Of a DNA stretch of 51,777 bases, positions 21,122 to 49,998 are shown piece after piece. The position numbers and the translations under genes were made by a program. Source of the stretch: Catajapyx aquilonaris (taxonomy: Eukaryota). Below the pieces are notes generated by a model, which searched no databases, was not told the DNA's origin, and was given only the letters and a program-made list of their open reading frames with translations. The DNA lies in assembly GCA_000934665.2 (NCBI GenBank), contig KZ540085.1, positions 1 to 51,777 on the forward strand. The letters run 5' to 3'. How positions within the stretch are numbered: position 1 is the first letter of the stretch; each line of letters begins with the position of its first letter.

Positions 21122-21311
21122 GTTCTGCATATGATTAGAGTTATGCAAAGGTCGTCCTGCCAATTGGGTGGGGTTCAATGCCAATTGAACCAAACATGGA
21201 CAAACAAACAAACAAACCCTGCCGAGTATAAAATGGACGCATGAAGGGAGTGATCATTGGGCACAAACGCTGCCTCTTATAATAGAGACGTTGATGATGG
21301 CGATGCCGACG

Positions 21312-21346
<35 letters not shown>
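21312..21346. repeat. (ATT)n microsatellite
   Basis: Perfect trinucleotide run. Confidence 0.97.
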
Positions 21347-21535
21347 CCCAAAAGCCAGAGTGTATTAGAGTGGGCAATAACCCGTAACTCGGGAATTTAC
21401 TCCCGTATAGAGACAGCGATCTGTCGAGTATACTACCCTTGTGAGTAACGGGCGCCAAATTGAGCGTGGCCGGACTAATCGAGCCAATTTGCGAGGTAAA
21501 TATTCCCGCGGACTCGTTGTGTGCAGTGCGAGTCC

Positions 21536-21566
<31 letters not shown>

Positions 21567-29369: not shown

Positions 29370-29885
29370 ACTGGCCACCTTGGCTTCACTTGTCCCACTG
29401 GCCAAGTACTGTCTACACGACCTAGTCACACTGCTAGTGTCACTTGGTCACCCTGCAACGCATTGGCTATACACGACCTGGACACCTTGTCATGTCACCT
29501 GGCCACCCTGGATGCATGGAGCTGAACACCTTGGAGGCACCACCTGATTACCCTGGCAATCTAGACTTTACCACCTTGGAAACAACCTGGCCACCCTGAC
29601 CTATAGAGAGGCTCTAGGAAGAGAGTCGCCAACTTCTGACTTCACGGTCGACTCCGATTGGCTGGAGTAGTTATACAAGCCTTCTGGCTCCAGCCAATCG
29701 GAGTCGACTGTGACGTCAGAGCCGGCCACTTTTTACATAAAAACGCAAGATGGAGGTCTCCATAGGACAACATAAACAGCCCAAAATGACTCCAGCACAA
29801 CCGTGACATAAGTTGGGACTTTCTTCCTCGAGGCTCTCTACCCTGACCTCATGACCTGGCTACCTTGTCCACCTGAGCACCCAGG
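29370..29885. repeat. Decayed minisatellite rich in CACCTGG/CACCTTG units, interrupted by the 29604-29840 MITE
   Basis: Repeated CTGGCCACC, ACCTGG and CACCTTG motifs on both sides of the MITE. Confidence 0.55.
29604..29840. mobile_element. MITE (hAT- or Mutator-like by TSD length), about 237 bp, with an internal 33-bp hairpin
   Basis: TIRs of about 31 bp: TAGAGAGGCTCTAGGAAGAGAGTCGCCAACTT and AAGTTGGGACTTTCTTCCTCGAGGCTCTCTA. Flanking direct repeat (A)CCCTGACC(T) at 29593-29602 and 29840-29849 gives an 8-10 bp TSD with an ambiguous boundary. Internal inverted repeat 29635-29667 / 29688-29720 matches at 31/33. Confidence 0.85.
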
Positions 29886-32252: not shown

Positions 32253-32335
32253 CCCCCGACTGTCCACCTAGTACCTGATCAAGCTCATAGATGGCGCATC
32301 CTCCCTCTCCGATGCCACTGGTGGTACGAGGAGTA
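32253..32335 (+). repeat. Interspersed repeat family X, copy C
   Basis: CCCCCGACTGT...TAGTAC...GCTCATAGATGGCGCATCCTCCCTCTCC...TGCCACT. Confidence 0.65.
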
Positions 32336-32386
32336 GTGCAGCCCCCTGCAACTCACATTTCCTTATTGTGACGATGGCGTACTTAG

Positions 32387-32579
32387 AGAGTCTCCGCCAC
32401 CCCGGATTTGGTGCTGGTTTCGCCCCAGCGGGTTGCCAGGCGTACTCGGGCGGACGCCTTCTGACACCAACCCCGTTCCAGGTGGTAGCACGTCTGCAGA
32501 TTCAGCCGCCATCCACCCGAGTGCGCCTGGCAACCCGCTGAAGCGACGCCAGCGCAAAATCCGGGGTGGCGGAGACTCT
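32387..32579. mobile_element. GC-rich foldback MITE, about 193 bp, possibly PIF/Harbinger-type
   Basis: Arms of about 70 bp: AGAGTCTCCGCCACCCCGGATTT...CAGCGGGTTGCCAGGCGTACTCGGG and its inverted copy ending ...AAATCCGGGGTGGCGGAGACTCT. Flanked by TTAG on the left and TAA on the right. The superfamily call rests only on the TTA/TAA-like flanks. Confidence 0.8.
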
Positions 32580-33324
32580 TAAGTATACGCTACACCGTAT
32601 CATAGGAGGTGCAGGAGGCTGGAGTATAGTGGAACTATCAGCAATTTGCAAGCCACTATTCAGAGCACGTGGACCAAACAGGGTGTGCCAGGTTCCCCCG
32701 CAAGCAATCACGTTTCTCCAAATGACACATCATTGTCCCTGATTGTATCTGAACTACCAATCAGGTATCGGTCCCTAACCGTATTTTCTCGAACGTGTTA
32801 GTCGAATCAAAGATCACTAAAAATGTTTCCACTCCCATTTCCCCCTCTCCTGATGGACATGCAACCAATTGACAACAAATCGAGGGAACCGGTAAAGACA
32901 TGGGATCCGTGACGCGCCCATTTAACAACCCTTGTAAGGTGGGTGGGTGGGCATACATACCGGGGGTCTACATGATGATTGGGCAAATCCGTCCCGTGTG
33001 CGTGGGGTTCGATTGAAACTCTGCAAATTGCTACTGCCAGTACCTTCAAGTAACCCCCCCACCTCCCAACTAACCCCACTGCGAGCGGAATTTCTGCTGA
33101 CTCGCAAAGGGAGGGGCCCTCCCCGCATTCTAATCCGGGGGCCTCCACCGAACATCTGCATCATTAGTTAGTGACCAAAGAATACACCTTAATTAGCATA
33201 ATCTTCGTTTCTGCATAAACGCCCAGTTACGTTACTAATTAGCGTGAAAATACGGTAGGTGGGCGATGTCGAATTCGCCAAGTCATGCACGCTCCAGCTA
33301 ACAAATGTTTCCCTCCCCCTCTGT

Positions 33325-33325
<1 letters not shown>

Positions 33326-33367
<42 letters not shown>
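33326..33367. repeat. (CT)n microsatellite
   Basis: Perfect dinucleotide run. Confidence 0.97.
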
Positions 33368-33370
<3 letters not shown>

Positions 33371-34991
33371 ATTGTTGGCATTTTTCTGGCTGGAGGCTGC
33401 TGCTGCGAGGGTGGGATCAAGAGCATGGAAGTTTAACTGTAATCAGCTAACTTCGGATCAGATAATCAGAGCGTACGAAATATTTCGCGTCAGAAATAAT
33501 TCCATTGCAAAAAAAAAAAAAAAAAAATCCGTAAGAAAAACGGTAACATAGGATGAACAAAGAACGATTTTTTGTCGCATTAATCAAATTATCATTAAGC
33601 TCATGGTTAATTTCAGTGGTTATCAAAAGTATATTAGGCAAAACTGAACCATGCGCTACCTGCGTATTGTAATGACTGATTGTAACAATTGGCATCAAAC
33701 GTTAATGACGGAATCCATTTTTGCAGGCTTTATAAAGGATTGGTACAAAACATAATATTATAGTAGCTCATACTTTAGATAGCCATTAATGATATGCAGC
33801 TTAGTGCGAACAGCAATCGGACAAGGATTTGACCGAAATCATGATGAACATTTATTGAGAGCATAATATAGCCTACCTTCAAAAGCAGCAATAACGTCTG
33901 AGAGCTAATTCGTTTCAGTTTTGCTGTCGACAACAATGAATAACAAACCTTTCTTCTGGCTCAGCTTTTATCAAAGGAGCTAAAAATAGACGGGAGAGGA
34001 TGAAAGCAATTTCTGTGTTTAATTCGGCCAGCACAAAATGCTAATCGCAATTAATATTTAATACACCCCCTCCTCCCCCATTGCTCTCCCTTATTCCCAT
34101 CCCTTCCCATCCGACATTTTGGAATCAGACATTTGCAAATGCCTTATCACCTTATCTGTAGAGGGAGAGTGGGGGTGTATAGGGGGGGTAGGGGAGGGAA
34201 AAGTAATTCTGGAATCAGCATTCGTGACTTCAAAGGTACGCGATTCGGCAAAGTTGTGGTCTCATTTCAGCTACAGCAGATAAAGGCGGATTTTGAGACT
34301 GTATTTCATTACCCGAACTACTTTATATAATTACCAGTCTACAACTTTGAAAGCTGGGCGAGACGACGCTAAGAGTGGGGTGGGGTGGGGGGANCCCCCC
34401 CACCACCCTCCTTATGTTGAAGAACATTTCGTCATGACTTCGTATAGAAGTTCGCCTTACCTTTGTGAAGGAGGAGCCAGGGAAATGGAACAGAGTCAGG
34501 AATTCAAATACCGCTCACAGACTCATGATTATTATTATGAGGGCACCTTAAAAAGATGGGGGGACCCCATAAGTACTTCGCACTTCCAACTTGCACAGGG
34601 GGGAGAATTCCCAATATCAGGCAGCCATTGTTGGCGACGGAGGCACAAGTTCGGGATCTTGGGATTCGAAAATATTGTATCCATCAGGATTGAAGGAAAT
34701 TATCTTCATCTTATTTATTTTTCCAGGAAGGCAATAATCCAATAATATGCTAATATTTATTTATATACTGTACTAGCGATGTTTACACCGGTAGTCTGAT
34801 AGCAACCAAGTGAAGATAGCTCCTCCTCCCATTGCGCATGCGCAGAACGGGGCCAATAGGAAGCGTCGCGCTAACAATTTACGACGGACCAATCAGAAGC
34901 ATTATGCAAACAACGCAGGATTTCAATTTTATTCATTTATTCCCTTGCTAAAAATTGGCCCCGTCCCTGCCTTTTTTTTATTTTTCTCTGT

Positions 34992-35080
34992 CCCTGACTG
35001 TGGACGTAGTACACAATCACCCATATAGATGACGCACATTACCGATGACTCACCGCGGACATAGGCACAGACCCATGCCA
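34992..35080 (+). repeat. Interspersed repeat family X, copy D (internally deleted)
   Basis: CCCTGACTGT...TAGTACAC...ATAGATGACGCA is joined almost directly to GATGACTCACCGCGGACATAGGCACAG, matching the two ends of copy B. Confidence 0.65.
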
Positions 35081-38000
35081 ATACATGCTATACGTGATTC
35101 ATTACTTCATTGATTCATATATTTATTGCAATATTATTTAGGATGTGAAAATGCTTACTCTCAATCTAATATTAGTGACATCGCTCCATGACGTCGCGAA
35201 ACTACCGGATATAGTTTGTTTGGTCCATAAATCGTCGGAGAGCAAGGAGCGATATATTAGGTCGCCAAATGCTATGTACTTTTTCCTTGGACTCACACTA
35301 ACACTAAACACAATTTTCAAAAGATTGATGATCACTAATTCATTTTCTGGGTTTCTGAACATGGTCGCTCGGGACCTTCGTTTTAAAAAAATAATTAAAA
35401 GAGTAACTCGCTTGAAGTTTGCAAATGCCGTTCTTACCACAACGCGGAACTTGCACCGGGGCGGTTTGCAAAATACGAGGAAATCGATTTTGGTGAGTCC
35501 ATTCCAATAGGCCTATCAGCAGCGCAATATTGTACTAAAACACTCCCCCCCCCCCCCNTTTCCCCCCTGAAACCGTTGTGATGTCCGCTACAAACATTTT
35601 TACCCCTTATTGATTTCGCTCATTACTCCGCATGCGCGACTTTTAAGTAAATCTCTGGATTGTGGCCAAAAATGTCACCAGATCCAACAATAGTCTCGTT
35701 TCTTCTCTTTTTTGTTAAAAAAAATAACTGTCTTGGGGACCAGAGGAAAACTTAAGAGGCTGTAGCACTAAAGAGATGCGAAACGAGGAGAAGTAATAGG
35801 TAATCTCCGCTGAGTGGATTCGGATTAAAGGGGTTCAGCACAGGAATGGATAATTAAATCGACATAATCCGTGCACTGAGCCTAATTCGTTAAAAAAATA
35901 ATTGCGCCCCCCCAGTATTAGTTTGGTGAATTCCTCAGTTATTTAATAGCAGGACACGTGGCTCTTATATGCAGAAAATGATGGCGGTCGTATTATTTGT
36001 GCGCCAATAATAAGTTTAATAAGTTTTATTTACCTGCGGGGCTTTGTGGGCCCTTCTGCATTATTTGTGAGCCAAAAATTGCTCATTTAGCACTTTCAGA
36101 TGACACTATTGCTGATGGCCAAATTTGACGCAATTCAGTGAAACATACACAGAGTTTCCCTCACCTCTTCATCCGATTATGAGAGAGAATTGTCATGACG
36201 GGGCGATACTGTTATTTCCAAACTCAGTTGGAGACCTGATTCAATCATATGTCAGTTCGAGTTCGAAAAAATAAATTACAAAGGGAAAGGGGTTGTTGCT
36301 CCAACGAGAGTTACTTGGTCAATACATGAAATGGCATGATTATCCCCCCCCCCCGTCCCCCTCCCCCTTTTCCAGCCCTCAAATCACGACAGATTTGTCG
36401 CCGATATTGTTTACATAATATAGTAAACGCACCGCACATCCACAGCGGAAACCAATTTGCATACATTGATCTTATAGATTACCAAGCGCAATTTGTGCCG
36501 TTTCTACTCCACGTCACTTTTGCAGCGCTGTTAAATAGGCGGAGCTGTGTAATGCCCGCATTTTAACTTAGGTACTTAGTACTTACAGTTAGTTACACTA
36601 CAGTGTTCAAAATGTGGTCAATTGACACCAAAATTCCACAAAAAACGCATTAATTTTTTTTTTCATGTATCAGATCCACACACGCGTTCGAGAGGTTCCA
36701 TCACGTGTAATGTAAATAAACTAATGTTAACCATACTATAATAACTGTAGATATCGCATATCGCAACTGTGTTGTAGTCAGAAAATTGCGAGTAAATTTT
36801 TTTATGAAAAGAAAAATTAAAATTAGTTCCACGAATAGTTATAGATGTTGTACAGAGTATGCAGTACATGAATGTTCAGTTCACAAGTTGCCTGCGGGTC
36901 CTGCAGGACTGCGTTTCAATTGTCTTTTTCTTTTGTACGCCGCCGACGCGACGTAAAGCAAGCAACGTGATGCATCTGAATATCTGATACATCACAGTCG
37001 ACAGTAACCGTACAGTACCCTATGCTTTAAATTTCAACAATGCGAGGCAGCGAGGGTTATTATTCCACAACAGTGATATTCATGCCAGTCAGTTTTCAAT
37101 AGTCTGCTGAGCCATACACGACGAGTTGCAAATCGTTCTTTACTGTAGTGTCCGTAAAAGTCATAATGACTAATATTTAATTTTAATTTGATATACAACG
37201 GTAATGCAACTCGTGATTTTGAATTTTACTATAATGTACGGTAATTTAATTTAATATTAAATATTTGCTAATCTGCCAACCAGAAAATGGAAACTGCCAT
37301 ATTGGGTCCTGAGAGTCAAAAATAATGTGGTGGGAATTGTCATGTACCGGTACTTATACATTGTTTAGCTATGTAGTACATACAAAGTAGTGCATACACA
37401 CATGGTTCATTTATCTTATAAATATGTAAAATTTACCTCGTTAACTACAATATATCATCATCATGCTGATCTGGACCAAACATGGCGGCGCCCATTTCAC
37501 GTGGCGCTTCTTACTAATAAAGACTTTAACCACCGCAGCGTTGCCAAATCCACTTTTTCTGAACAAGTCGCGCCGGCTGCCTGAAGTGCAGGATAAACAA
37601 GCCGTATATTTAATCCGAGCCAAGTGTGGGTGACGCCATCTCATTACTGCATAGACGCAGTTGTTGCCGGCACATTTCAGGAAGCGAACCAAAAAAAAAC
37701 GAGCTATCTCCGTTGGAAAGGAAAAGCAAAGAAGAGTAAAGTATCTGGCCCAAGTCGACGCCTGCGCAGAACTAGAACCCAAGGTTTTCTAAAACGCCGT
37801 CTCTCTCTCTCTCTCTCCCTCCGACTACTGCAAAGAACTGTCTTGGGCACTTAGTCTAATGAATTTTCTAATCCTTCCCTATTGTGCTGAGGGAAGGGCC
37901 TCCTCCTCCTCCTCCTCCTCCCTAATATAAAAACAATTCACTAATGCTAGGGATACGCACATCAATTTTTCTAATTGCGCCTCCCCTGTATACGTATGCC

Positions 38001-38495
38001 CAAGTTGCATAAACGAAATTAATGAACTAAGGAGGGAGTGGGGGGGATTTCAAAAGGCGAAATCGTAGCCCGAAGAGCACCTTTAATTAAACGTAAGTAC
38101 ACCTCTCCAAAAAGGACTTGTCTGCAACTTCGCCCATTAATTCATGTGACTAGGGGCTTGGGGGGGCCTAGAGGGGACGGTGGTGGTGTGAGGGTGGGAA
38201 AAGGGGGCGCAAGTGCAGAGGTTCCAAGGAACTTCTCTCTTTCAAGGGATGCACTTACACTTTGCTCCAGACTCATGCAGTTATCAACTGTATGGACTCG
38301 TAGTACCTTATTCCATATTCTTATAGCGGAATCAGAATCACTTCGAGTTAGCGATGGAAAAAATTGCTAAATTAAGCAGCTAATATCGGCACATTTATAG
38401 CAATAACATTCTCAACTAATAACCAGCATATTATTAACTAATATTATATAACACATCTGTAGCAAACTTGCCTCTGTATAACTAATATTATGACA

Positions 38496-39088
38496 CTAGC
38501 AGGGGAGCCCTCTTGGCTCTCGCGCAGTCTGTTTAAATGGGCACGAAATTGGGGTAAATGGGTATGAAATGGGCAAACGAACAAACTTTGTCCTATATGT
38601 TTCAACTTTTTTGTCCGAACAGTTATCGGAAAATTGCACTTAGCTGCTACTTTGTAAGCAGTGACTTGCAAACGGTGATTTTTCGGAAGAACGGGGAATA
38701 TTCCCTGCGAATCGTAGGTTGAAGTGGCATACGGTGCTGCCCGCTGAAAATTGAGGGTCAAGCCTGGAAAAAAGAGGGTCACACATGCCATGGGATGTGT
38801 GACCCTCTTTTCCCCCCGTTCCTCCGACAAATCACCGGTTGCAAGTTACTGCTTACAAAGTAGCAGCTACGTGCAATTTTCCGATAACTGTTCGGACAAA
38901 AAAGTTGAAACACCCTGTATATACCAGAAAAAATCCTAAATTTTGGGTATTTAGACTCACTTTTCCCTCAATCAGTGGCAGGTAAGCCATCGGTGTGCCA
39001 AGTTTCAGCACTCTCAGTAACCTGGCAGTGGGTTAGGTAGCTCGAACATACAAACACTTAGAGAAAGTGCCTCATTTTAAAATATAGA
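38496..39088 (-). mobile_element. Short non-autonomous Helitron (about 270 bp core) interrupted by a nested MITE
   Basis: Minus-strand 5' end A|TCTATATTTTAAAATGAG...TGTTTGTATGT...TGAAACTTGGCACAC. The 3' end has a GAGCC-AAGAG-GGCTC hairpin followed by CCCTG-CTAG|T. These are the canonical TC...CTRR termini inserted between A and T with no TSD. A second partial copy lies at 16357-16509. Confidence 0.75.
38598..38917. mobile_element. Mariner-like palindromic MITE (about 320 bp) nested in the Helitron
   Basis: Near-perfect inverted arms of about 100 bp (TGTTTCAACTTTTTTGTCCGAACAGTTATCGGAAAATTGCAC... / ...GTGCAATTTTCCGATAACTGTTCGGACAAAAAAGTTGAAACA). The right end CACCCTG|TA is the TA-CAGGGTG mariner-type terminus; the left end lacks CAGGG. 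A central perfect 17-bp stem is at 38770-38786 / 38795-38811. Confidence 0.88.
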
Positions 39089-41561
39089 TATCTTTATACA
39101 GCTAATAATATTAGCTGCTATGATATTATCATAACAGCTCGTGTAACCAATATGATAACACCTATCAAACTAATATATAAATGTGTTGGCAGTCCCGAGA
39201 TGTGCGACGTTCCTTTCTCCGTCGACTATTGGTTTTACAATGTAATGGAGCTCGAGTAAAAGGAGCGTCTCGAGAAAGAAGAAGAAAAAAAGATGCTGCA
39301 CGGGGGCCCCCCTTTTTCCGGGGACGGATTTTTAGAAACCTGTTGCTTACAGGCCGCGACACCGCCTGTCCTCTAAAGTCTCTTCTCTCTCTCTCTCTCT
39401 CTCTCGTTCCCCCCCCCCCTTCCCCTTTTTTTCTCTCTCTCTCCCCCGCCCGGAGGAAAAGCACCGCTCCGAGCTTGCAGAGTAAATGCTGTGAAAACCC
39501 TCGCCCCCGCTAACATATTGCTGCAGATTTAACCACTGATTTGGGCTTATCTCAACAGGGGCTCAAAGGGGGGAGCTGCATGACCCCCTTCCCTTTAATA
39601 ATGTACGAATTCAATCGACGCCCAATGATCAGGTCTGTAATCGGAGCTCATTTTACTGACATTACGATCAAATCGGCAGGTACTTTTTCATGCCGGAGAT
39701 GCATAACAATGTTCAAATCCTTTTTCCGGACAACATTTTATTTTATAGCAAAAAGTGCCGCAGTGTTAGTCAACAATCGCAACAACCGCTGGAAACTAGT
39801 TAGTGCAATTAGCAACACCAATTTTCTCAGAAGTACACACAAGAGGTGAACAGGCTCGTAAAATTACACGTATATTACAACCTCACGAGTTACTAGGGCG
39901 CTAACACTGCTTCGGGGTCATTTAGGTGACCAATATAAAAGGGCACGAAATATTAATGGCATAATAATTTAATGCAATTCTGTCCGGCAATACACTCCAT
40001 TTTTTCTTTTTTTTTTCTTCTTTTTTTGAAAACGGCTATCACGCTTCGGGATCGCGAAATTCCAAATCGTTTTTCAAGGATTTATGGAGCGGCTCTAAAT
40101 AAATTCCGCGTGATAATTTTTGCATGCGGTTTGCATACTTTCGGGCTTTTGTCGGCCGATGGAAAAATTAGTCGTCCAGCATGCCTCAGCTTGGGAGGGA
40201 AAACGGCAAAAGGTGATCTAGATGATAACTAGTTTTGCTAAGCATCGCCTCGCCATAATGATAATAAGCCAAGATGCCAGCTTACCTTTTATTACTCCCG
40301 CCAACTTGTTAAGGAAACATTTATTAGTAAGCGCCAATAAAAATCTAGGCTATTTACTTCTGGCTATGTCATAAACGAAACTAAATAACTGCTACCTGGT
40401 TTACAACGCGAATAGCAACTATGTATGTATACCGTATACAACTTCAATGTGCGAAGTTGTTTACAAAGGATTGTTTACGCCAAATTCTGCATCCATTTGA
40501 ATTATGAACAACTGCAAATACCTTCTGCGTCCAGACTAGGGTTATCGTAAAAATGTATCGAGTTAAAATTAATAAGTTGTCATAAAACTAAATAGTCTTA
40601 AATGAACTTTGTGTGCCTCAAAATAGTATCCGACGACTTCTTAAAATTGAAAGAAAAATGATTTCAGGTTCTGTGGCCATTTAAACTTGAAAAATAATTA
40701 GCAATACTCTCAGCTCTGGCACAATTGCAATAATTTTTGAGTAGATGTCATTTTAGTGTGCCAACCAGAATGCGTGCCTATGCAGATGACATATCTTAAT
40801 TTCTATCGCTTAATCCAAAATCGGCCTATTTCCAGACGCCACGTGATAGGCGAAGCCTTTTTGCTGCTCCGATTGATGCAAATTGTTCCGCCTTTCCTTC
40901 TTACACTCCATCTCCCTCCTTTTTCCTCTCTCCAATAAATCGTGTCAAGTGTGCGTCCGCTCTTGCATTCCTGTCCCCAAAACTCAATCTTTTTCCTCTT
41001 CAAAAAAATTCCTCAACTCTGAATATCCTGATGTTCCGCAACGCAAAGGTTAATTGGTCGGAAAAGAATTTTTGCGCGGTAAGAAAACAGCAGGGGTGTG
41101 CAACTGCTTCTTTTTCTTTTCTTCTTGATCTTGGGGGGAGGAGGAGGCTCACCCAGCACCTAGCTTGTAACCGAATTCTTGAGTGGCTTGAAACACGCCA
41201 TAGTCGGCATCGATCGTCCAGGCTGACAAGCAAATACCTTCTCACGGAGTGGCTTAATTCGATGGTTATCCACTCCCAGACATGTCGCGGAGATTTGGAG
41301 GCCGACAACCGCTGTAATTGGCGGCCTTTTCAGGGCAGAACACATGCTTTAGGAGGCCGGTACAGACTGGTGAACTGACCCAAGGCTGTCACAAAAATTT
41401 GAATGGAAAGTTTGATATCTGGTCTGGTGGGCATATGTAGTCAAATTAGTTTTCCTGGGTGAGTCAATGTCTATTATATTAAATTGTTAAACTAAAGTAT
41501 CCTTTTCCTAATAGGCTTATTCTCTCCGTCGGTTTCTTGTCTGATCTGATAGTACATCTAT

Positions 41562-41622
41562 CTCTCGCACGACCTGAGTGTGGTAGGAGTCTGCGCCATC
41601 TATACGTAAAGAATATTACTAC
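41562..41622 (-). repeat. Interspersed repeat family X, copy F
   Basis: Minus-strand ACGTAGTAATATTCTTTACGTATAGATGGCGCAG...CCACACTCAGGTCGTGCGAGAG matches copy B. Confidence 0.6.
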
Positions 41623-43429
41623 GTGGTGAATCCAGCGAGCCATCTCATTAAAGTTGTTTCGAGTGTTACTGTCATGCTGATTGTGCGATATAGATTTCGA
41701 CAAATTTTGGCAACCTTCCTCCAGTACTCTGTACTTGGGCATTGCACCACCCTGTTGTACAGTGTTTTAATATATACGCACAGAGGCCCAGTGCAGCAAG
41801 CAGGCATGTCGATGAAATAGAGCAGCAATTGTTCATATCCTCGCGGGACAAGTTAGCAACTCTTGGTCGAACAAATTGAGTTAATTATGCGTCTGGTTTG
41901 TGCGCTAATTTCTGTGCCAATCAGTTGAATGCGTCGTCAGGGGACAAATCACTGCGGGCTTGAGTGCGCGACGTCTGTTTCAGGGGGGACGACTGTTGGA
42001 GACAAAAAGTTCTGGGGGGGTTGGTGTCAAAAATTGGCGAATTGTCCGCATAAGCCATTTAGCTAGGGGTCCTCCTCTCTAGGTAAATTTCGTCGGATTT
42101 TGTAGGACTTTACAACTCGTGGGATTCGTCCCACTTGCCACTTCCTCCAACCCCAAAAAATCCGGGTTTGGCCCCCCCTAGGACAATCCAGCCTTGCGAG
42201 ACTTGTTCCTTGTTGGCCGCTGGCAGAGATTTGGCGCCCGCATCACACTCTCTAAGTAGGGAATGTTTATCCTCTAGGGGGGGTCCACCCATTCACTTAA
42301 TCTCATTGTTCATGCGGTTTTGCGGGGACTGCTCCCTCACTAAGTTTTCCTGGCCGGACAAACCATAGTTGGAAACAGAAAGGAGGTGGGGGTGGGGTTT
42401 GCATTGAAATCCGGGAGTACCGCAGTTATGCCCGGAGAATGCGGCCCCCTTTGCAATAGGTGGCGCTCGAGACTAATTTCCTCACTTACTCTTGTCGTGT
42501 ACTGGCTGCCACCTAGCCAGAAAGACAACAATGCAGTGGCTACACAGAAGGTCACTTAATTCCAGCCTATTTGTCCTCCCTCGTTTTTTTTCTAGCTAAA
42601 AAACTGGGGAGGGCGAAATAGCGGCAGCGGCATTGCTGCTGACTTGTCGCCGTCCAAAACCTTGCTGAATAGACGAATGTTCTTTTGGCGAGTTGGCACG
42701 GCATAATTACGGAGCTTCTGTTAGCTTAGTGCATTAGTGGAGCTGAATTAAAGCTTTGTTACTATTTCCACTAGATTAATTAGGCTTATTAGCTATTCAT
42801 TTTGCAACCTGAAATTGCTCATATAGCCCCCCCTCCCAGCTCGCCCAACCACCCCCCATTAGCCGGTGCCATATAGACGGCGGGCGGCTGTGAGACGACT
42901 AATGATCAATGACGTTGCCTGTTGTCCGCCGGTACACCTTTTCAGTACCCGGGGGTTTGGTTGGGGGGGAGAAAAAACTCAGAATAAATTGAGACTTCGA
43001 TTAGTGGTGGTGGCGGGTTAGCTGGGCGAGTGTGCAGGGATGAAAATGAGCGAATTCCAGCATTTTGCACACATGCCTATAGCCTCTGCTGACGCAAAAT
43101 GACTAAAAAGGAATTGCTCTCTCAACAGCTACTCTGTCACTTGTATGCTAACAAAGGTCCGGTGGTATTGCCGCCACTTGCTAAAACGGACGGCTTCACC
43201 ACAAGTCGACCATTTCCTATATACTGTTTCTAACTAGTGTGTCGTCCGACAGGGAAATAACTCGTCGGCTCTAAACAAGTCGAAAATGTAGAGGTGAGAA
43301 ATTCCGAGGGAGCAACTGGTAACAAGGTAGATGACAAGGAACATTAGGATGCCACTAGACACGCACGACAAGACAGTGTTCACAGCAAAATAATGCTTCC
43401 AAACCGCACTGGGTGTTTCAAAAGGGTGT

Positions 43430-43438
43430 TCTTACCTG
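43430..43438 (-). promoter_or_regulatory. Consensus 5' splice donor (CAG|GTAAGA) in the LMO4 3' region; possible 3'-UTR intron start
   Basis: Plus-strand TCTTACCTG reads CAG|GTAAGA on the gene strand. It sits shortly after the GC-rich, exon-like sequence fades. The partner acceptor was not identified. Confidence 0.45.
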
Positions 43439-43478
43439 GATGGCATGTTGTGTGGAGAAAAGAGCTGGTGACGTATTT

Positions 43479-43712
43479 TCAGCGGAGATGGTGGAGGCAA
43501 TAACGAAAGGCCTGTGCGGCATCTGGGGAATAGATCTCGGGGACGGCGTCGGCCTCTGGGGGCAGCTGCAGGGGCAAGGGCGGGGGCAGGGGCTGTCCCT
43601 GCTGGGGCATGGGCAGGGGCATGGGCATGGGGTGCTGGCTGAACGGGGGCAGGGGCGGGCAGGGCAAGGGCGGAGGGCAAGGGGCCGGTGGAGGGGCAGA
43701 GGGGGTGGGCGG
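43479..43712 (-). other. Candidate stop-codon readthrough extension of LMO4 (77 codons, Pro-rich) ending at a second TGA
   Basis: The first stop is TGA-C. The frame stays open for 77 codons to TGA at 43481-43479. Hand count of G+C by codon position: 60/77, 46/77, 62/77, a coding-like pattern. Confidence 0.45.
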
Positions 43713-44037
43713 TCAGTCCCGACTACGCCTAGGTCGGCCCACCTTCCCCTTTCGCACGGGGCCGCCCTGGGGCGCGCCCACCCCACCACCGGCCACGGCC
43801 GCGGCCGCTGCGCCCTTGAGCAGCTTCTGGCAGTCCTGCTCGCACAGCAACGCACCTTGCACCAGGGCGTATCGGTCCCCAGGGTTTAGCGGCACCTGGC
43901 ACTTGGAGCACACGAAGCACTTGAGGTGGTACACGTAGTGCTGCCCCGGGCCCTGCCCCGGACCCGCCCGCATCACGAACTCGTTGGCTGGTATCATCTG
44001 TCCGCACGCCGTGCACGCCCCCGTGTTGCCGTACAAC
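43713..44037 (-). CDS. LMO4: LMO4-like last coding exon: LIM2 plus basic C-terminal tail, TGA stop at 43715-43713
   Basis: Acceptor GTGTCTTCCTTAG|G at 44038/44037 completes the split Arg codon (AG|G), giving DYIR-LYGNTGACTACGQMIPANEFVMRA...VYHLKCFVCSKC...PGDRYALVQGALLCEQD. This matches the LMO4 LIM1-LIM2 linker and LIM2. No homeodomain follows, hence LIM-only. Spliced CDS is 503+325=828 nt, i.e. 275 aa plus stop. Confidence 0.95.
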
Positions 44038-44963
44038 CTAAGGAAGACACGACATTTTAGTGCACAGTATAGGGTTCAAACAGCAGGGTTACCAGTCACA
44101 GAACCAGGGTAGCCAATCATAAATATATTCAAAGTTAGGCTACCACTCACAGAAACAGCTTTGTCAACAGGGTTGTCATTCATAATTATTTCAAAGTTAA
44201 ATAAATTAAATCCGTGACATCGGGCAATTCAAAACAGTGCGTTCAAGTGACGCCATTTTTACGTCGCCAAAGTTAGCCAACGTCTATGAATTCCGGGCTG
44301 AGGTTGACGTCAGTGGCAGGCAACACCTCCGGGGACTGTATCCGAAGGGTGTGACAGACAAGGTGGCGCAATCTGGGTCTGTCAACGAAGCCGCGTGTGA
44401 AACAAACCGTTTCATTAGTTAACAACCCTGCGTTTCCTTAGACGCAACTTGGCCCGGAGCGGCAAGGCACAAGTAGTCCCCTTTGGGGAATTGATCTCAG
44501 GGCAAAAGGAAATTTCGCATCCCGGAATTATACAGGGAAAAGGAACCCCCGCCTCATGTCTCAAGATATCTTGGGTTTTTGCCCATCGGAAAAAGAGCAG
44601 CCGGGGGTAGGGGATGGTCGGCCTCAAAAATTTGGAGGACTACCAAACGGGCCACTTACAAGGGCTATAAAAGCATTGCGCGTGTCTCCCAGTGTTGCAT
44701 GACTCCGGATCCCATCTTGTTAAAAACCTTCCCCCCCCTCTCCCCATCCCCTACCCCCACCCCAAACAGGCGGAGACTTACTGCTCATAGCCGTTGCCAA
44801 TTTCTGCGCGGTCAAGCCTTCACCGTTTGTGTCACATAAGTATTCATTTGCAGGACAGTCCGCTACAGCAGTCACAGTGTTATACTGTATACAGGGTGGT
44901 CCATCTCACAAATGCAAAAAAAAAAATGAAATTATCATTTGAAATTCTTATTATTATTAGGCC

Positions 44964-44983
44964 TATTATTATTATTATTATTA

Positions 44984-45033
<50 letters not shown>
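44964..45033. repeat. (ATT)n microsatellite in the LMO4 intron
   Basis: Trinucleotide run with one substitution. Confidence 0.97.
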
Positions 45034-45035
<2 letters not shown>

Positions 45036-45676
45036 CTATAATTTCATGAAAATGTCATGTAAAAATATCTAAATGAGTATTTTAATAAATCCACATTTCC
45101 TGAAATCAGCTCTTTTTAATCGTAAGTTTCTAACCGTTATTTTAGTGATTATGAAAATATTATCTGCTTCTATTAGGTTGGACGTACTAATTTTTTGTCG
45201 CAGATAAAATTTCCAGTAAGTTCAACATTTGATTCACACTGTGGCCGAGGCGCGCTCGAAACGTCTCGCCTTGTTATAGTTGTCCAGCACTGCTATAGGA
45301 AATTCACTGGAACTCATTGTCAGTGCATCAACCTATTATTAGCAACTAATTTTTTTTTGACAGCCCTCTAAAATAATGTTAAGATTTTGACCCTGCTTTC
45401 AATGCCGCAGTTATCGTGACTCAACTTATTAATAATAGCTTAGTGCCAAAAATTGCAGACTGAAACGCAGGTTGCTTATCATTTAACTGCTTGCTGGGGG
45501 TAAACAATGCATGATTTCTCTCCCCTGTGGAATTGGGGTGCTTTTGGTCGGTGCACCACCCTGTAGACATAATATTTGGCAACAGCGGCTGGGCCGCCAG
45601 TTAGGCTCCGAAGCCAACTCCTATCCAATCACTCAATTTCTTTGAAAGGTAGTAAAACCCTGATGGTTTTCTGCCN

Positions 45677-45746
<70 letters not shown>
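45677..45746. repeat. (CT)n microsatellite in the LMO4 intron
   Basis: Perfect 70-bp run following a single N. Confidence 0.97.
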
Positions 45747-45751
<5 letters not shown>

Positions 45752-46955
45752 GCTTGCTGTTGCTGCCCCATGCTGTTACGTTGGTTGATTTTGAACCTTC
45801 CGGATGACTCACGCGCTATTTCAAACTCCAATCAGGCTAATTGGCAATCTCTCCTTATTGGCACTCTGACTAGTAGGCAAAGAAAGAAACACGTGTTTCA
45901 TTACTCTGGAGGTCTCTGCCCAACCTTTAGACTTGTTTCCGACTGGAATAACAATCCTTCTCGGAATGGCCTCCTCTCTTCACTTGGGCCCCCCCAGTCC
46001 AAAAAAGAAAGGAAAGAAAAAAAAACTGAGTAGTAGTAGTCCCCTGGCTGCCTCTTACTTCTATTTGGAAAAACACTCTTGTGTGCAAATGAGACTCAGG
46101 CACGCCAACTAAGATCCATTAGAAAACCCTCCTTCTTCTTCTCTGGTCTCACCTTCGTTTTAACTCCCTCAGCTTTCCCGTCCTTCTGCCAGAATTGGCA
46201 TTAATAATATGCATGCATCATTTTTACACCACTTTGTATCATTTCAGCAAGTTTTGGCGGAATATCTGAGTGCAAACGAGGATGCAACCAATAATCCAGA
46301 TGGAAGCCTCGGCATCAGGTATTTTTAAAATAAATATAGGGCGATACTAATCTATTAAATATTCGCACTATATTATAGAGTTACCACTTCCTCTCGCTGT
46401 TTACATCGTAAATTTCACATGTGGTTTTTATGGTTACTCCACTGATAAGATGTCAAGGACAAGGCACCATGTCGCGTAACAAATCTCGCAAAGAAAAAAT
46501 GGTTGTCTTTGTCTCCAGTTCGTTTTGACTGAGGTCCACTAATAGCTAATAAGGTTGATTAATAAATAATCAAATGTAACTGCTTAAAATGCAGTTTATT
46601 GCAAAAAATCGCTAATCATTACGGACAATTAAATTAGGAGTGTTCAAATTGGTGTTCGTTACAGGTCGCAATTTCTCGCACTAAGCGTCTGATTATTAAG
46701 AAATTACTTTTAGCAATATTATGTGCCAATATGATATTAGAACCAGTTATTTAGTCCTGAAACAGTGAATTTTCCGATCAATCCATATCGGCATATTTAA
46801 TGGTTGATCGCATTTTATTGCTGCCCATACTTTATGCAGGACCAGTACAGGATATAATAAAATGTTCGCACCTAATTTCCATTGCAACTCTTAAAATCAG
46901 TTGTTCCTAATTGACTAATAGCCCACGAAAAAGCGAAAGGGATACTAAAGAGGTG

Positions 46956-46994
46956 AATAAACAAATAAACAAACAAACAAATAAATAAATAAAT
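46956..46994. repeat. (AAAC/AAAT)n tetranucleotide tract
   Basis: AATAAACAAATAAACAAACAAACAAATAAATAAATAAAT, adjacent to the intronic foldback element. Confidence 0.85.
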
Positions 46995-47000
46995 TTAATG

Positions 47001-47241
47001 TATTTGAACGCCCTCTTGGCTGAATTTACATTTTGCCAAGTTAGATGTCAGTTTTACCTGGAGATATTTTTGCGATAAGCAATAAGTAATGAAGTGGATA
47101 CAGTAAATGAAAAATAATAACTTCATAAACAAAACAAAAAAATCATAATAACAAGCAACTGTGCGCAATATATCTCCCAAGTAAAACTCGACACCTTTAT
47201 GGAACCCTGTAAATCCGGCCAAGTAAGAGGGCGTTCAAGTA
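47001..47241. mobile_element. Degenerate foldback MITE-like element in the LMO4 intron
   Basis: 47001-47074 (TATTTGAACGCCCTCTTGGCTGAATTTACA...GTCAGTTTTACCTGGAGATAT) is an imperfect inverted copy of 47162-47241 (ATATCTCCCAAGTAAAACTCGAC...TGTAAATCCGGCCAAGTAAGAGGGCGTTCAAGTA). Confidence 0.65.
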
Positions 47242-49495
47242 TGCATCAATTCCGATTGCGCATGTGATTTAGACCCTGGAACACGTCTCCTCGAGTGATT
47301 ACTAACCCTCCCGCCATCTGATTCGCTGCCAGCCAAAAACTCCCCTCTAACAAAAAGTGACAAATTAAACCGTTAGTTAACAAGATAAACACTACAAAAG
47401 AGTACAAAGTGGATGCGGGCCACAGCACACACATCCCAGTAGGCCTCGAGGCACGCCCCGGGGCGACACTCCCTGCCACCTTGACTCCTCGCATCTGTGC
47501 AAAAGCACACAACACCGTTTATTTCTTCTGGGAGGCTTCATCTGGCGCATAGCTTCCGGCTCCTATAGGCTTCTATATAGGCTTCGATTCCCTCCCCCCA
47601 CACCCGAGAGTGCAAAGAAAAGAGAGAATCGCCTGCAGCCAATTGGGCTAATTTTTCTGCAGCTGGCTCCGGATAATAGACGCCCCAATATTGGCCAATC
47701 TATTTGCCTAGAGGGGCTAACGAGAGGGGAAAAAAGGTGGTAGGAAAAGGAGGAGGGAAGTGAGTGGGGGGGCATAAGGAAAATTGGGGAGTTGAAGTTG
47801 GATAACTTAATTTGGGCGCCGGAGCCTATTGCCTGCAACTGGCCTTCCATTCGGAATCAATATTGACTTGCAGGGGGGTCCCCCTTCTCTAGCTAGGTGG
47901 GGTGGGTGGTAGGGTGGGTTGAAGCCCCGAAGAGCCTGCTAACTTCACTCCTAATGGCATTTGCATATATTTGCTAAGGTGGGGGAAATGGCCCGGCTTG
48001 GGTAATAGTTGCGCCAAAATCAATTTGCATCCGTTTACCAATCGTTTATTCCTGATCGCCCGTGATCAAAATTGACGATTTTTGTTGCTTTTACTAGGAG
48101 CAGGCCCTATACTTTTCACACCTGCATAGCTGCTATGCAAACCGCTATTTGAACATGCGAGGGGGGCTGGAAATCGCGGTGCATTATTCGGGAGGAAAAG
48201 AATGGTTATCTATCCTTAGGAAGCGGAACTTGGCAGATGGATTAATTTTCGAAGCCCGTGTCCCTCCCCCCCATCCAATCTTATCCCCTAAAAGCTTCCC
48301 AGGAAGCAATTAGAGTAGGGGACCTCAATTCCAGCTAGGCGGCGCTTAAGCTAATGATTGCTCGCCGTTTCATCGCGATGAGAAAATACACGGCTCCCTC
48401 TCTCCTTTAGAAAACCGAATGGCCCTTCTAAAATTACCGCAGTAACTAAAAGCAATTGTCTCCTTCCCCAACTTATGTTCCTTGATATCTGCTGTGACGC
48501 CTTTAGCATGTTTACAGCCGCTTTTTACGGTACCATTCCCCGAAAGCTTTTAGTCCGTCTGTGTAAAAACAGGCCGTTTGGCGCCGTTGCAAGATTACGT
48601 CAACGCCCGGGACTTTTCCGGAAGGGGGCGGAGGATGTTCGCAATAGTTAGAAAAGCTGATTTGTTTGGCTTGCACAAGGGGTCATTCCACCTGCTGTGT
48701 CAACTAACTGGCAAGAAGCAGCTCATAGACACACGCGGCAACCCACACCAAAATCGGCCGAAAATTGCTGTATACTGCAGGCCAACGAACGTTATCGTGG
48801 CTTTGCCATGCCGAGATGCATTCGGACGCGCTATCTGAACTGTCACGCGCCACTTCGTCTCGTAGGAAAGAGCATCCACCTAACCTAACCTAACCGATGT
48901 GCCTAATTTTTCCCTTCTGAGACTTGATCGCCCTTGCTTCCTTCATCCTTCCCCCCCTGAAGCTCAGGAGAGGACGATAGATCCTTGGCAGCCCTGTGGA
49001 GAAGTGGTTCTAGGCCGGCAATTTGGCGGGATCTAGAAGTTCCGCAATGCTATTGGAAACAGGCTTAGCTCACTCCAACCCAAAATAGGGAGGAAGCCAA
49101 TTGACACATGATGACCCGACTCCTCTTTTTGCGCCGCTTATGGCCTGGAGTGGGGGGGGTTCTACTTCTCCCTCCCTCCCTACCCCTCCCCTCCCACCAA
49201 AGTTTCTGGTCAACATTCATTACCGGAGGATTAAGGCCTGCGTGGTTGCCATAGAACCCGGGGTTTCCAGGATTGGTTTCGACCCCCGGATCACAGGAGG
49301 ATCATATTTTTTTTAAAAAAAAGATGGAACTTGTCTCTAATAATGCGTCATCTCCTGCAAAAATGTCAGCTGTTTTCTGATGGCTCTGCAGGTTGGGAAA
49401 GTCGCTATTCTGCTATTTGCATGTTTGATATTGGCAGTGAAAGTGTGAGCGTCAATATTATTTCCTGATGCGTAGAATGAGGCACCTCGTCTCAC

Positions 49496-49998
49496 CTGAT
49501 GTAGTCCGTTTTGCAGAGGATCATGCCCTCCTTGGTGAAGCATGAGGTGCCCATGTCTGCCAACAGCGAGTTGCAATAGGAGCACTTGAGGCATGCGTTG
49601 TGCCAAAAGCGGTCCAGGGCCTGGAGCAAGAACCGCTCCAGGATCTTCCCCCCACATCCCGCGCACATTTTGATCCCGTTCGAGGGCATCATGTTGGAGC
49701 CGGTCACTCCACCTGGTCCACTACCACCACCACCACCGGGGCCGCCCCCGGGTCCACCCCCAGGACCGCCCCCGGGCCCGCCCATGGAAGGTCCGTGTCC
49801 GTGGAAGGGGCTGCCACTGCCCATTTCTCCGTTGACCACGTTGCCCCTGGCCGAGTGGGGGTCCATCGGGGGGCCGCCCCCGTTGTTGATGTGCCCGTTG
49901 TTCAGCACTCCCCCCGGCCCCCTGTGGTAGCTGCTGTTGTCCACCGGGGAGTGAGGGGAGTTGAGCTGCTGGTGGTAAGGGTGGAAGTGCGGGTTCAT
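49496..49998 (-). CDS. LMO4: LIM-domain-only protein 4 (LMO4-like), first identifiable coding exon: 111-aa His/Gly/Pro-rich N-terminus plus LIM1
   Basis: Translation contains CAGCGGKILERFLLQALDRFWHNACLKCSYCNSLLADMGTSCFTKEGMILCKTDYIR, a complete LIM zinc-ligand pattern (C-x2-C-x17-H-x2-C-x2-C-x2-C-x19-C-x2-D) closely resembling LMO4 LIM1. ATG at 49998 is in a GCCGGCCATG context. Upstream is a long polypyrimidine tract and acceptor (TTCTTGGCAG|, exon start 50035), open in frame to the ATG, so an upstream exon could extend the N-terminus. The exon ends at donor ATCAG|GTGAG (49496/49495), phase 2. Confidence 0.95.

What the first reader, a model, noticed from the sequence alone, without database searches (positions are those of the whole stretch)
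43479..43715. Candidate programmed stop-codon readthrough giving LMO4 a 77-aa polyproline-rich tail
Seen: the CDS ends ...CGG GAC TGA CCG, a UGA-C context. The same frame stays open for 77 codons (PPTPSAPPPAPCPPPLPCPPLPPFSQHPMPMPLPMPQQGQPLPPPLPLQLPPEADAVPEIYSPDAAQAFRYCLHHLR*, 29 Pro). Hand-counted G+C by codon position is 60/77, 46/77, 62/77, the high-low-high pattern of coding DNA, with many C/G-ending codons (CTG, CAG, GCC, GAG, ATC). The last ~25 residues are not low-complexity. Established: UGA-C is the leakiest stop context, and readthrough with disordered low-complexity extensions is common in insect regulatory and neural genes. Inference: a second LMO4 isoform in which a LIM-only adaptor gains a Pro-rich activation or SH3/WW-binding tail and the basic motif becomes internal. 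Caveat: C-rich DNA is stop-poor and the other two frames are also largely open here, so openness alone is weak evidence.
Basis: partly seen in the sequence, partly recalled or inferred. Interest (0 to 1): 0.82.

Follow-up and report, generated by a model that had tools for sequence, protein, structure and literature searches.

The report
Open frame behind LMO4 stop codon
The long open stretch behind this gene's stop codon is most likely just C-rich untranslated sequence, although the same gene in ants, bees and wasps does carry a conserved hidden tail behind its stop.

Summary
The sequence facts are right. A minus-strand LMO4-like gene (275 aa, two LIM domains) ends ...RKGKVGRPRRSRD-UGA-C, and frame 0 stays open for 77 codons (29 Pro).

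The openness is what the composition gives. Shuffles give P about 0.34, all three sense frames and two antisense frames are open, and the tract is degenerate hexamer repeats. Codon scores are not exon-like. There is no RNA structure downstream. No protein among 5.8 billion clusters resembles the tail. No close relative's DNA was available for a conservation test.

In 14 distant pancrustacean lineages the stop varies (9 TGA, 4 TAA, 1 TAG), as do its context and the open length (2-91 codons). The fly and mosquito orthologues are absent from the readthrough catalogue searched.

New findings:
- RNA contigs place the stretch in the penultimate exon. A 25.3-kb 3'UTR intron starts 43 nt after the second stop.
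- Hymenopteran LMO4 orthologues carry a strongly conserved 91-92-codon tail behind an in-frame TGA. The window's tail shows no similarity to it.

Verdict: most likely a C-rich 3'UTR (0.55). Functional readthrough remains possible (0.3) and untested.

The parts
49496..49998 (-). First coding part of the LMO4-like gene: ATG at 49998-49996, low-complexity N-terminus and LIM domain 1. It ends ...DYI-AG before the GT donor at 49495-49494.
   Evidence: Translation. Pfam LIM E 4.2e-14. A spliced RNA contig of run X5 joins this exon to the next (joint 44035/49494 with the cut free by 2).
44038..49495 (-). Intron 1 (5458 nt), GT..AG.
   Evidence: Joint 'skips 5458' in a contig of run X5. Splice-site letters read.
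43716..44037 (-). Second coding part: LIM domain 2 and the conserved C-terminus RKGKVGRPRRSRD.
   Evidence: Pfam LIM E 1.7e-12. The C-terminal motif is invariant in alignment A1.
43713..43715 (-). First stop codon TGA, followed by C at 43712 (UGA-C).
   Evidence: No difference in the DNA contigs that cover it.
43482..43712 (-). The 77-codon in-frame open stretch (29 Pro). It is 72% G+C and 53% C.
43559..43683 (-). Degenerate hexamer repeats inside the stretch (TGCCCC, ATGCCC, TTGCCC on the minus strand).
   Evidence: Tandem Repeats Finder: period-6 arrays at 43559-43593, 43605-43631 and 43657-43683, plus a period-13 array at 43647-43683.
43479..43481 (-). Second in-frame stop codon TGA, 43 nt before the exon end.
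43436..43478 (-). Last 43 nt of the exon (47-50% G+C), ending CATCCAG before GTAAGA.
   Evidence: An RNA contig of X5 covers 43531-43436 and then leaves the local sequence exactly at 43436.
18105..43435 (-). 3'UTR intron of 25,331 nt (GTAAGA ... TTGTTCTTTTCAG).
   Evidence: The 30-letter loose end of the X5 contig at 43436 occurs once in the window, at 18075-18104 (0 of 100 shuffles matched). It sits directly behind a canonical acceptor.
17948..18104 (-). Start of the 3' exon. It is A/T-rich with stops in all frames. The 157 nt carried by the RNA contig imply this range, but only the first 30 nt were matched to the window.
   Evidence: AATAAA/ATTAAA motifs lie only about 1.5-2.1 kb into this exon, and none lies in the 277 nt behind the first stop.

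Best explanation
The 231 nt are the first part of the LMO4 3'UTR. They form a C-rich tract of degenerate hexamer repeats in the penultimate exon, and the tract is free of stop codons because of its composition.

Translation normally ends at UGA 43715-43713. This gives a 275-aa LIM-only protein whose C-terminus (RKGKVGRPRRSRD) is the one kept throughout hexapods and crustacean-like relatives. The mRNA then runs 277 nt further, is spliced across 25.3 kb, and ends in a long A/T-rich 3' exon.

Shown here: the gene structure, the composition effect, and the lack of any coding signal beyond chance.

Inferred: at a UGA-C stop a small share of ribosomes will leak and make a Pro-rich tail, but as a by-product without selected function. 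The C-rich tract itself more likely acts at the RNA level, for instance as a platform for poly(C)-binding proteins. That last point is recalled from general knowledge and was not tested.
For: Composition explains the openness:
- Frame 0 is open for 77 or more codons in 33.5-35.4% of 5000 dinucleotide shuffles. The other two sense frames are open for 92 and 91 codons.
- Antisense stop-to-stop ORFs of 176 and 134 aa also cover the tract.
- The tract consists of period-6 repeats.
- Six other tracts with 42% or more C or G lie in non-coding parts of the same window.

No coding signal:
- Codon log-likelihood per codon, cross-validated: true exons score -0.01 and +0.08 in frame, against -0.39 to -0.59 off frame. 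The stretch scores -0.36, -0.37 and -0.49 in frame 0.
- G+C falls gradually from 0.80 to 0.50 some 35-90 nt before the second stop, not at it.

No readthrough stimulator: the 116 nt from the stop fold at -9.3 kcal/mol, z +2.28, and 199 of 200 shuffles fold at least as well. Rfam gave 0 matches at gathering score in the whole window.

No relatives of the tail:
- 0 of 246 candidates scored E <= 10 when residues 105-185 were searched.
- hhalign against the hymenopteran tail profile gave probability 0.2%.
- tblastn with composition statistics found no hit at the locus.

Orthologue survey: 21 of 80 metagenome loci carry the C-terminal motif, falling into about 14 lineages.
- Stops are TGA in 9, TAA in 4 and TAG in 1.
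- The base after TGA is G, G, T, C, A, C, A, C, G.
- In-frame open lengths behind TGA are 31, 5, 19, 62, 11, 3, 54, 2 and 91 codons.
- The two crustacean-like mRNAs L008 and L009 are also C/T-rich behind the stop, but they differ by TAA versus TGA and by gaps of 9, 5 and 19 nt.

Catalogues: CG5708 and AGAP007840 are not in Supplemental Data S1 of Jungreis et al. 2016.
Against: - Frame 0 is the best-scoring of the three frames in all three codon trainings.
- The UGA-C context is the one favoured in readthrough genes (passage of PMC7826183).
- The tract has the G+C level of the coding exons (72% against 46% for the window). It is the most extreme C-rich tract in the window.
- Hymenopteran orthologues have a conserved tail behind an in-frame TGA, so this gene can be a readthrough gene.
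- Several other insects show long or Pro-rich in-frame stretches behind TGA: P0013 with 102 residues, and P0076/P0077. Those ORF calls are biased towards long frames.
- The second stop lies 43 nt before the last exon junction, where normal stops usually lie, while the first lies 277 nt before it.
- The proposed RNA-level role of the C-rich tract is untested.
Confidence: 0.55

Rival explanations
1. Programmed stop-codon readthrough. A regulated share of ribosomes decodes UGA-C at 43715-43713 and adds a 77-residue Pro-rich tail, giving a second LMO4 isoform with an internal basic motif.
For: - The UGA-C context is present.
- Frame 0 is the best of the three frames by codon score.
- The composition is exon-like in G+C.
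- Readthrough is abundant in Pancrustacea (passage of PMC7826183).
- Ant, bee and wasp orthologues carry a 91-92-codon tail behind an in-frame TGA, with 31 invariant columns in 5 sequences and a common ...CD end.
- A Bombus terrestris candidate of matching context and length (TGA-GGTGGC, 92 codons, PhyloCSF 357) is row 18 of Table S21 of PMC7826183. Its identity with LMO4 was not verified.
- The second stop lies 43 nt before the last exon junction.
- Unchecked notes of this scan list other readthrough candidates in the same genome.
Against: - The openness is not beyond chance (P about 0.34).
- The codon score is not exon-like.
- There is no downstream structure.
- The tail is not similar to the hymenopteran tail or to any protein searched.
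- Stop identity, context and open length are not conserved across 14 distant lineages.
- The fly and mosquito orthologues are absent from the 2016 catalogue.
- 'CG5708' was not found in the held supplement text of the 2026 Drosophila preprint.
Confidence: 0.3
2. Alternative splicing rather than readthrough. A donor at the K|V codon boundary (GGGAAG|GTGGGC, intron from 43744) joins an acceptor behind the C-rich tract (...CCCCTGCAG|CTG, exon from 43567). This removes 177 nt that include the stop and joins RKGK in frame to LPPEADAVPEIYSPDAAQAFRYCLHHLR.
For: - Both sites exist and the join keeps frame 0.
- The C-rich tract would serve as the pyrimidine tract.
- The only RNA contig over the region starts at 43531, downstream of that acceptor, and nothing covers 43532-43985, so the RNA data do not exclude it.
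- Gene models of four Hymenoptera bypass their stop with small introns at the same K/G codons.
Against: - No RNA joint supports it.
- It would delete VGRPRRSRD, which is invariant in all 18 sequences of A1.
- The hymenopteran models use two different bypasses, of 36 nt and 78 nt when laid on the ant DNA. The residues inside the longer one are conserved in frame between ant and bee. These bypasses therefore look like predictor work-arounds for an in-frame stop.
- The two confirmed acceptors of this gene are T-rich, not C-rich.
Confidence: 0.07
3. UGA is recoded as selenocysteine.
For: Only that the stop is UGA and the frame stays open.
Against: No SECIS or any other Rfam family reaches gathering score anywhere in the 51.8-kb window, which includes the start of the 3' exon. 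Orthologues use TAA or TAG at the same place.
Confidence: 0.01

Closest known systems
Post-TGA tail of hymenopteran LMO4 orthologues (ant-like loci L035/L036/L052/L053/L058; models of Trachymyrmex septentrionalis, Atta colombica, Melipona quadrifasciata, Habropoda laboriosa, Microctonus hyperodae, Leptopilina boulardi)
   Same: It is the same gene and the same place. The conserved RKGKVGRPRRSR[DE] end is followed by an in-frame TGA and a long open frame that starts Pro-rich.
   Different: There the tail is conserved as protein across ants, bees and wasps: 56-86% identity to the ant tail, 31 invariant columns and a common ...YQ[DE]WS.W...CD end. The context is TGA-G. The tail begins with a second GRPKK motif and has a His-rich core. 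The window's tail shares none of this (hhalign probability 0.2%) and has no relatives to show constraint.
Catalogued pancrustacean readthrough genes (Jungreis et al. 2016, PMC5100048, Supplemental Data S1), for example Lim3-RB with TGA-T and 35 codons
   Same: A developmental transcription regulator with LIM domains, a TGA stop and an in-frame extension of tens of codons.
   Different: Those entries rest on multi-species coding signatures, and none could be computed here. The fly (CG5708) and mosquito (AGAP007840) orthologues of this gene are not in that table.
Readthrough of the Drosophila POU factor Drifter (PMC8417969; only the search listing and the start of the abstract were seen)
   Same: A transcription factor for which readthrough gives a C-terminally extended isoform.
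   Different: There readthrough was measured in vivo. Here nothing was measured.
C-rich 3'UTR elements bound by poly(C)-binding proteins (recalled from general knowledge; no call)
   Same: A pyrimidine-rich, C-dominated, repeat-like tract in a 3'UTR with no secondary structure of its own.
   Different: No binding motif was tested and no conservation was shown. This is an analogy only.

Membership tests
Programmed stop-codon readthrough gene (pancrustacean type) | Leaky stop context (TGA, best with C next) | tested here: met
   TGA at 43715-43713 followed by C.
Programmed stop-codon readthrough gene (pancrustacean type) | In-frame open stretch longer than composition allows | tested here: not met
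   P = 0.335-0.354 in 5000 shuffles. The other two sense frames are open to the exon end.
Programmed stop-codon readthrough gene (pancrustacean type) | Protein-coding evolutionary signature behind the stop in related species | not testable with these tools
   No genome is held for the window. The best relatives are 58-63% identical in LIM2. No polymorphism lies in the stretch.
Programmed stop-codon readthrough gene (pancrustacean type) | Stop codon and frame kept among orthologues | tested here: inconclusive
   Of 14 distant lineages, 9 have TGA, 4 TAA and 1 TAG. Open lengths range from 2 to 91 codons. Stop and frame are kept within Hymenoptera. None of these is close to the window's organism.
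Programmed stop-codon readthrough gene (pancrustacean type) | Single-sequence coding statistics in frame 0 | tested here: inconclusive
   Frame 0 is the best of three, but at -0.36 to -0.49 per codon against about 0 for true exons.
Programmed stop-codon readthrough gene (pancrustacean type) | Translation beyond the stop (footprints, peptides, reporter) | not testable with these tools
   No run on record as RNA was listed. The one run with spliced contigs (X5) does not cover the stop.
LIM-only protein of the LMO4 group | Two LIM domains and nothing else, with similarity to LMO4-named proteins | tested here: met
   One LIM domain per coding part. The protein is 275 aa. The best hits are insect proteins named LMO4, rhombotin or Lhx-like. 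The C-terminus is identical in 32 of the 44 fetched hits.
Hymenopteran LMO4 tail | Sequence similarity to the conserved tail (QVDVVDVGVG.DPYSPPPPGH ... YQ[DE]WS.W...CD) | tested here: not met
   hhalign probability 0.2%. tblastn with composition statistics gave no hit at the locus or elsewhere in the window.
Selenoprotein gene | SECIS element in the 3'UTR | tested here: not met
   0 Rfam matches at gathering score in the window.

The most novel reading that the evidence does not exclude
LMO4 of this pancrustacean is a genuine readthrough gene. A leaky UGA-C adds a fast-evolving Pro-rich tail to a LIM-only adaptor, as a lineage-specific counterpart of the conserved tail of Hymenoptera. The first stop lies 277 nt before a 25-kb 3'UTR intron and the second only 43 nt before it, so reading through would also move termination to the position where a downstream exon junction no longer marks the message for decay. 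One leaky stop would then set both the protein isoform and the stability of the mRNA.
Probability: 0.25. Interest if true: 0.55.

Novelty: not a real feature. Interest (0 to 1): 0.3.

Why it matters
If the tail were made, a LIM-only adaptor of the Chip/LDB complex would gain a Pro-rich docking segment. CG5708 is named a LIM-only partner of Chip/LDB-SSDP in passages of PMC4571689. That would add a regulated isoform to a developmental regulator.

As things stand, the value is mostly cautionary. A C-rich repeat tract behind a stop gives long open frames in nearly every frame, and the high-low-high G+C pattern does not separate coding from such DNA.

Two by-products are worth keeping:
- The gene's stop lies in the penultimate exon, before a 25-kb 3'UTR intron.
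- The hymenopteran orthologues have a well-conserved post-TGA tail that gene predictors bypass in two different ways. It is a good, testable readthrough case, possibly the unnamed row 18 of the bumblebee candidate list.

Tried and rejected
- RNA evidence. The look-up of sequencing runs listed no holder on record as RNA. Run X5, of unknown kind, carries spliced contigs but has no cover over 43532-43985, so it says nothing on the stop or on an internal intron.
- Own genome. None is held, so there was no paralogue comparison and no genome-wide codon model.
- Earlier findings of this scan. Searches by place near the locus, by words and by sequence gave nothing on this locus.
- Protein search with the tail alone found nothing: 0 of 246 candidates at E <= 10, and only proteins of 101-324 residues were searched.
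- A G-rich/C-rich hairpin across the stop, noticed by eye, folds at -89.4 kcal/mol but with z -0.27; 70 of 200 shuffles fold at least as well. Rejected as a signal.
- Homology of the P0013 tail to the hymenopteran tail looked plausible by eye in a MAFFT alignment. hhalign gives probability 0.4%. Rejected as shown.
- The same holds for the 'YSP' and C-terminal Cys matches of the window's tail.
- A separate tail exon elsewhere in the window was sought by tblastn with seven tails. No credible hit.
- Polymorphism. No difference in 43436-43715, against 8 single-contig differences in 42000-43300. About 1.7 would be expected, so this is not informative.
- Literature:
  - 'LMO4' together with 'readthrough' occurs in 4 papers, of which 2 were listed. 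By their titles and abstract starts neither is about LMO4 readthrough.
  - The held supplement text of Dunn et al. 2013 is only 8,584 characters, so its blank for CG5708 means nothing.
  - The held supplement text of the 2026 Drosophila preprint (one file of about 4.0 million characters, searched by gene symbol only) has no 'CG5708'.
  - The bumblebee Table S21 is cut where stored and gives transcript numbers, not names. The identity of row 18 with LMO4 therefore rests only on context and length.
- Slips corrected. A frame slip was corrected. A one-base coordinate slip was corrected.

Full report
**1. What is there.**
On the minus strand the window holds an LMO4-like gene. The first coding part (49998-49496) starts MNPHFHPY... 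and holds LIM domain 1. It ends DYI-AG before a GT donor. The second part (44037-43716) holds LIM domain 2 and ends RKGKVGRPRRSRD. Pfam finds one LIM domain in each part (E 4.2e-14 and 1.7e-12). The protein has 275 residues. A spliced contig of run X5 joins the two parts across 5458 nt.

The stop is TGA at 43715-43713, followed by C. Frame 0 then runs open for 77 codons with 29 Pro, to a second TGA at 43481-43479. G+C by codon position is 60, 46 and 62 of 77.

**2. Is it more than chance?**
No.
- The 231 nt are 72% G+C and 53% C. They consist largely of degenerate hexamer repeats.
- In 5000 dinucleotide-preserving shuffles, frame 0 stays open for 77 or more codons in 33.5% (277 nt) or 35.4% (231 nt) of trials.
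- The other two sense frames are open right to the exon end, at 92 and 91 codons. On the plus strand, ORFs of 176 and 134 aa cover the same tract.
- A codon-usage log-likelihood was cross-validated between the two coding parts. It gives -0.01 and +0.08 per codon for true exons in frame, and -0.39 to -0.59 off frame. The stretch gives -0.36, -0.37 and -0.49 in frame 0, and -0.48 to -0.84 in the other frames. Frame 0 is always the best, but it does not look like an exon.
- G+C falls gradually from 0.80 near 43575 to 0.50 near 43515, before the second stop rather than at it.
- Six other tracts with 42% or more C or G lie in non-coding parts of the window, though none is as extreme.

**3. RNA features.**
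The 116 nt from the stop have almost no structure (-9.3 kcal/mol, z +2.28). The G-rich coding end can pair with the C-rich tract (-89.4 kcal/mol), but no better than shuffles do (z -0.27). Rfam gives no match at gathering score in the window, so there is no SECIS.

**4.
A contig of run X5 covers 43531-43436 and then continues for 157 letters that do not lie nearby. Its first 30 letters occur once in the window, at 18075-18104, directly behind TTGTTCTTTTCAG. At 43436 the exon ends CATCCAG before GTAAGA.

The stretch therefore sits in the penultimate exon, and a 25,331-nt intron lies in the 3'UTR.
- The first stop is 277 nt before that exon junction, and the second is 43 nt before it.
- No AATAAA or ATTAAA lies in the 277 nt. 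Such motifs come only 1.5-2.1 kb into the A/T-rich 3' exon.
- X5 has no cover between 43532 and 43985, so RNA says nothing about the stop itself.
- The three DNA runs show no difference within 43436-43715. With 8 differences in the 1300 nt below, about 1.7 would be expected, so this carries no weight.

**5. Relatives.**
The LIM2 exon plus tail (stop read as X) found 75 proteins among 352 candidates. The best are 62-63% identical, and the identity covers only the part before the stop.

I fetched 44 of the 75:
- 32 end exactly at RSRD or RSRE.
- 4 (horseshoe crabs and a similar unnamed one) have another end after RKGK.
- 1 runs on after RSRD with L.
- 7 are ORF calls that read the TGA as W and run on.

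Those seven show that TGA is common at this place. Their lengths are biased, because a W-reading code is chosen where frames stay open.

The tail alone found nothing (0 of 246 candidates at E <= 10). No genome is held for the window. No close relative appeared among the 80 metagenome loci either; the best is 58.6% identical. The test that would decide the matter, conservation in near relatives, could therefore not be run.

**6. Survey of distant orthologues with DNA.**
21 of 80 loci carry the C-terminal motif, in about 14 lineages.
- Stops: TGA in 9 lineages (L001, L006, L007, L009/10, L014, L015, L020, L024 and the L035 group), TAA in 4 (L002-4, L005, L008, L011), TAG in 1 (L013).
- Behind TGA the next base is G, G, T, C, A, C, A, C, G.
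- The in-frame open lengths behind TGA are 31, 5, 19, 62, 11, 3, 54, 2 and 91 codons.
- The crustacean-like mRNAs L008 and L009 share the window's EQDC signature in LIM2 and are also C/T-rich behind the stop. One has TAA and the other TGA, and they align with gaps of 9, 5 and 19 nt.
- Termite-like loci have TAA followed 4 nt later by ACAG|GTGAGT. Several other genomic loci have GTAAG-type donors within 300 nt of the stop. An intron just behind the stop may therefore be old in this gene.

They are, however, too distant to judge this lineage.

**7. The exception: Hymenoptera.**
Five ant-like loci are identical downstream of the motif over the 310 nt compared. They read ...RKGKVGRPRRSRE, then TGA GGC GGC, then 91 open codons that look like protein. 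The tail has a second GRPKK motif, a Pro-rich linker, DPYSPPPPGH, a His run, and ends ...YQDWSSWAQDTCD.

A search of 1.84 billion representatives with this tail found two proteins:
- Microctonus hyperodae KAK0178460.1, which has the LIM2 end fused to the tail.
- Leptopilina boulardi XP_051173794.1, which is the tail alone.

A search among longer proteins found four models, of Trachymyrmex septentrionalis, Atta colombica, Melipona quadrifasciata and Habropoda laboriosa. These models join LIM2 to the tail in two different ways:
- ...PVRKG|GNPVGRPKK, which on the ant DNA needs a 36-nt GT..AG gap containing the TGA.
- ...RKGK|PTPAVVP, which needs a 78-nt gap.

The residues directly behind the stop (GGNPVGRPKKVQ) are identical in ant and Melipona. 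The five-sequence tail alignment has 31 invariant columns, with 56-86% identity to the ant tail.

The simplest reading is a conserved in-frame TGA with a conserved coding tail, which predictors bypass with invented mini-introns. That is the signature of readthrough.

The bumblebee genome paper lists 851 candidates (passage). Row 18 of its Table S21 is TGA-GGTGGC, 92 codons, PhyloCSF 356.8. This matches the Gly-Gly start and the 92-residue Melipona tail. The table gives only a transcript number, so I could not verify that it is this gene.

**8. Does that carry over to the window?**
Only as a raised prior.
- The window's tail is not similar to the hymenopteran tail. hhalign gives probability 0.2%. 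tblastn with composition statistics finds nothing at the locus or anywhere else in the window.
- The long P0013 tail is not significantly similar to it either.
- CG5708 is named a LIM-only partner of Chip/LDB in PMC4571689 (passages). It and AGAP007840 are absent from the 687-row table of Jungreis et al. 2016. That table does list Lim3-RB.
- 'CG5708' is also absent from the held supplement text of a 2026 Drosophila preprint.
- No listed paper treats LMO4 readthrough.
- Unchecked notes of this scan list other readthrough candidates in the same genome. This fits the general abundance of readthrough in pancrustaceans but is no evidence for this locus.

**9. Verdict.**
- Most likely (0.55): the stretch is the C-rich beginning of the 3'UTR, open by composition. 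Termination is at the conserved UGA, with at most an unselected leak.
- Possible (0.3): functional readthrough. The points in its favour are the UGA-C context, frame 0 being the best frame, the exon-like G+C, the hymenopteran precedent, and the position of the second stop 43 nt before the last exon junction.
- Unlikely (0.07): an in-frame internal intron (43744-43568) that would replace VGRPRRSRD by the last 28 residues of the tail. It is formally possible but unsupported, and it would delete an invariant motif.
- Close to excluded (0.01): selenocysteine recoding.

Noticed in passing
L035, L036, L052, L053, L058 (e.g. L052:3125-3556): Ant-like LMO4 loci have a 91-codon tail behind RSRE-TGA-GGC. 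The tail is conserved as protein in ant, bee and wasp gene models, which bypass the stop in two different ways. This is a strong readthrough candidate in its own right. It may be row 18 of the Bombus terrestris list in PMC7826183 (TGA-GGTGGC, 92 codons).
   Followed up: partly
window 18105-43435 (minus strand): A 25.3-kb intron lies inside the LMO4 3'UTR and is supported by one spliced RNA contig. The annotated stop therefore sits 277 nt before the last exon junction, an arrangement that in many animals marks a message for nonsense-mediated decay.
   Followed up: partly
L002-L005 (about 4 nt behind the stop) and L013, L014, L001, L015: Termite-like loci have TAA followed by ACAG|GTGAGT. Other genomic orthologue loci have GTAAG-type donors 11-280 nt behind the stop. 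An intron just behind the LMO4 stop may be ancient in pancrustaceans.
   Followed up: no
L001:553-648: An insect-like orthologue has a 31-codon frame behind TGA-G that contains GRPPKLKPS. This resembles the GRPKKVQPS at the start of the hymenopteran tail. It may be a remnant or relative of that tail outside Hymenoptera.
   Followed up: no
proteins P0076 and P0077 (Logan ORF calls): Two related insects share 25-26 residues behind RSRD-W (APPARAPKPPPPQPATPPDFEQVFI) and then diverge. That is the pattern expected if an intron begins there.
   Followed up: no
window 43273-43345 and 48775-48853: Two short high-copy repeats. Summed contig depth reaches about 336-490 and about 3300-5900 in the DNA runs, against 15-30 elsewhere, with many loose ends.
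   Followed up: no
window 44900-45100: An A/T trinucleotide microsatellite with G+C of 0.15, read as poly-Ile, poly-Asn or poly-Leu in the ORF list. It breaks the contigs of all DNA runs.
   Followed up: no
window 43683-43795: The G-rich coding end (GGCCGGTGGTGGGGTGGGCG) is roughly complementary to the C-rich start of the post-stop tract. The fold is strong in energy but no better than shuffles (z -0.27).
   Followed up: yes
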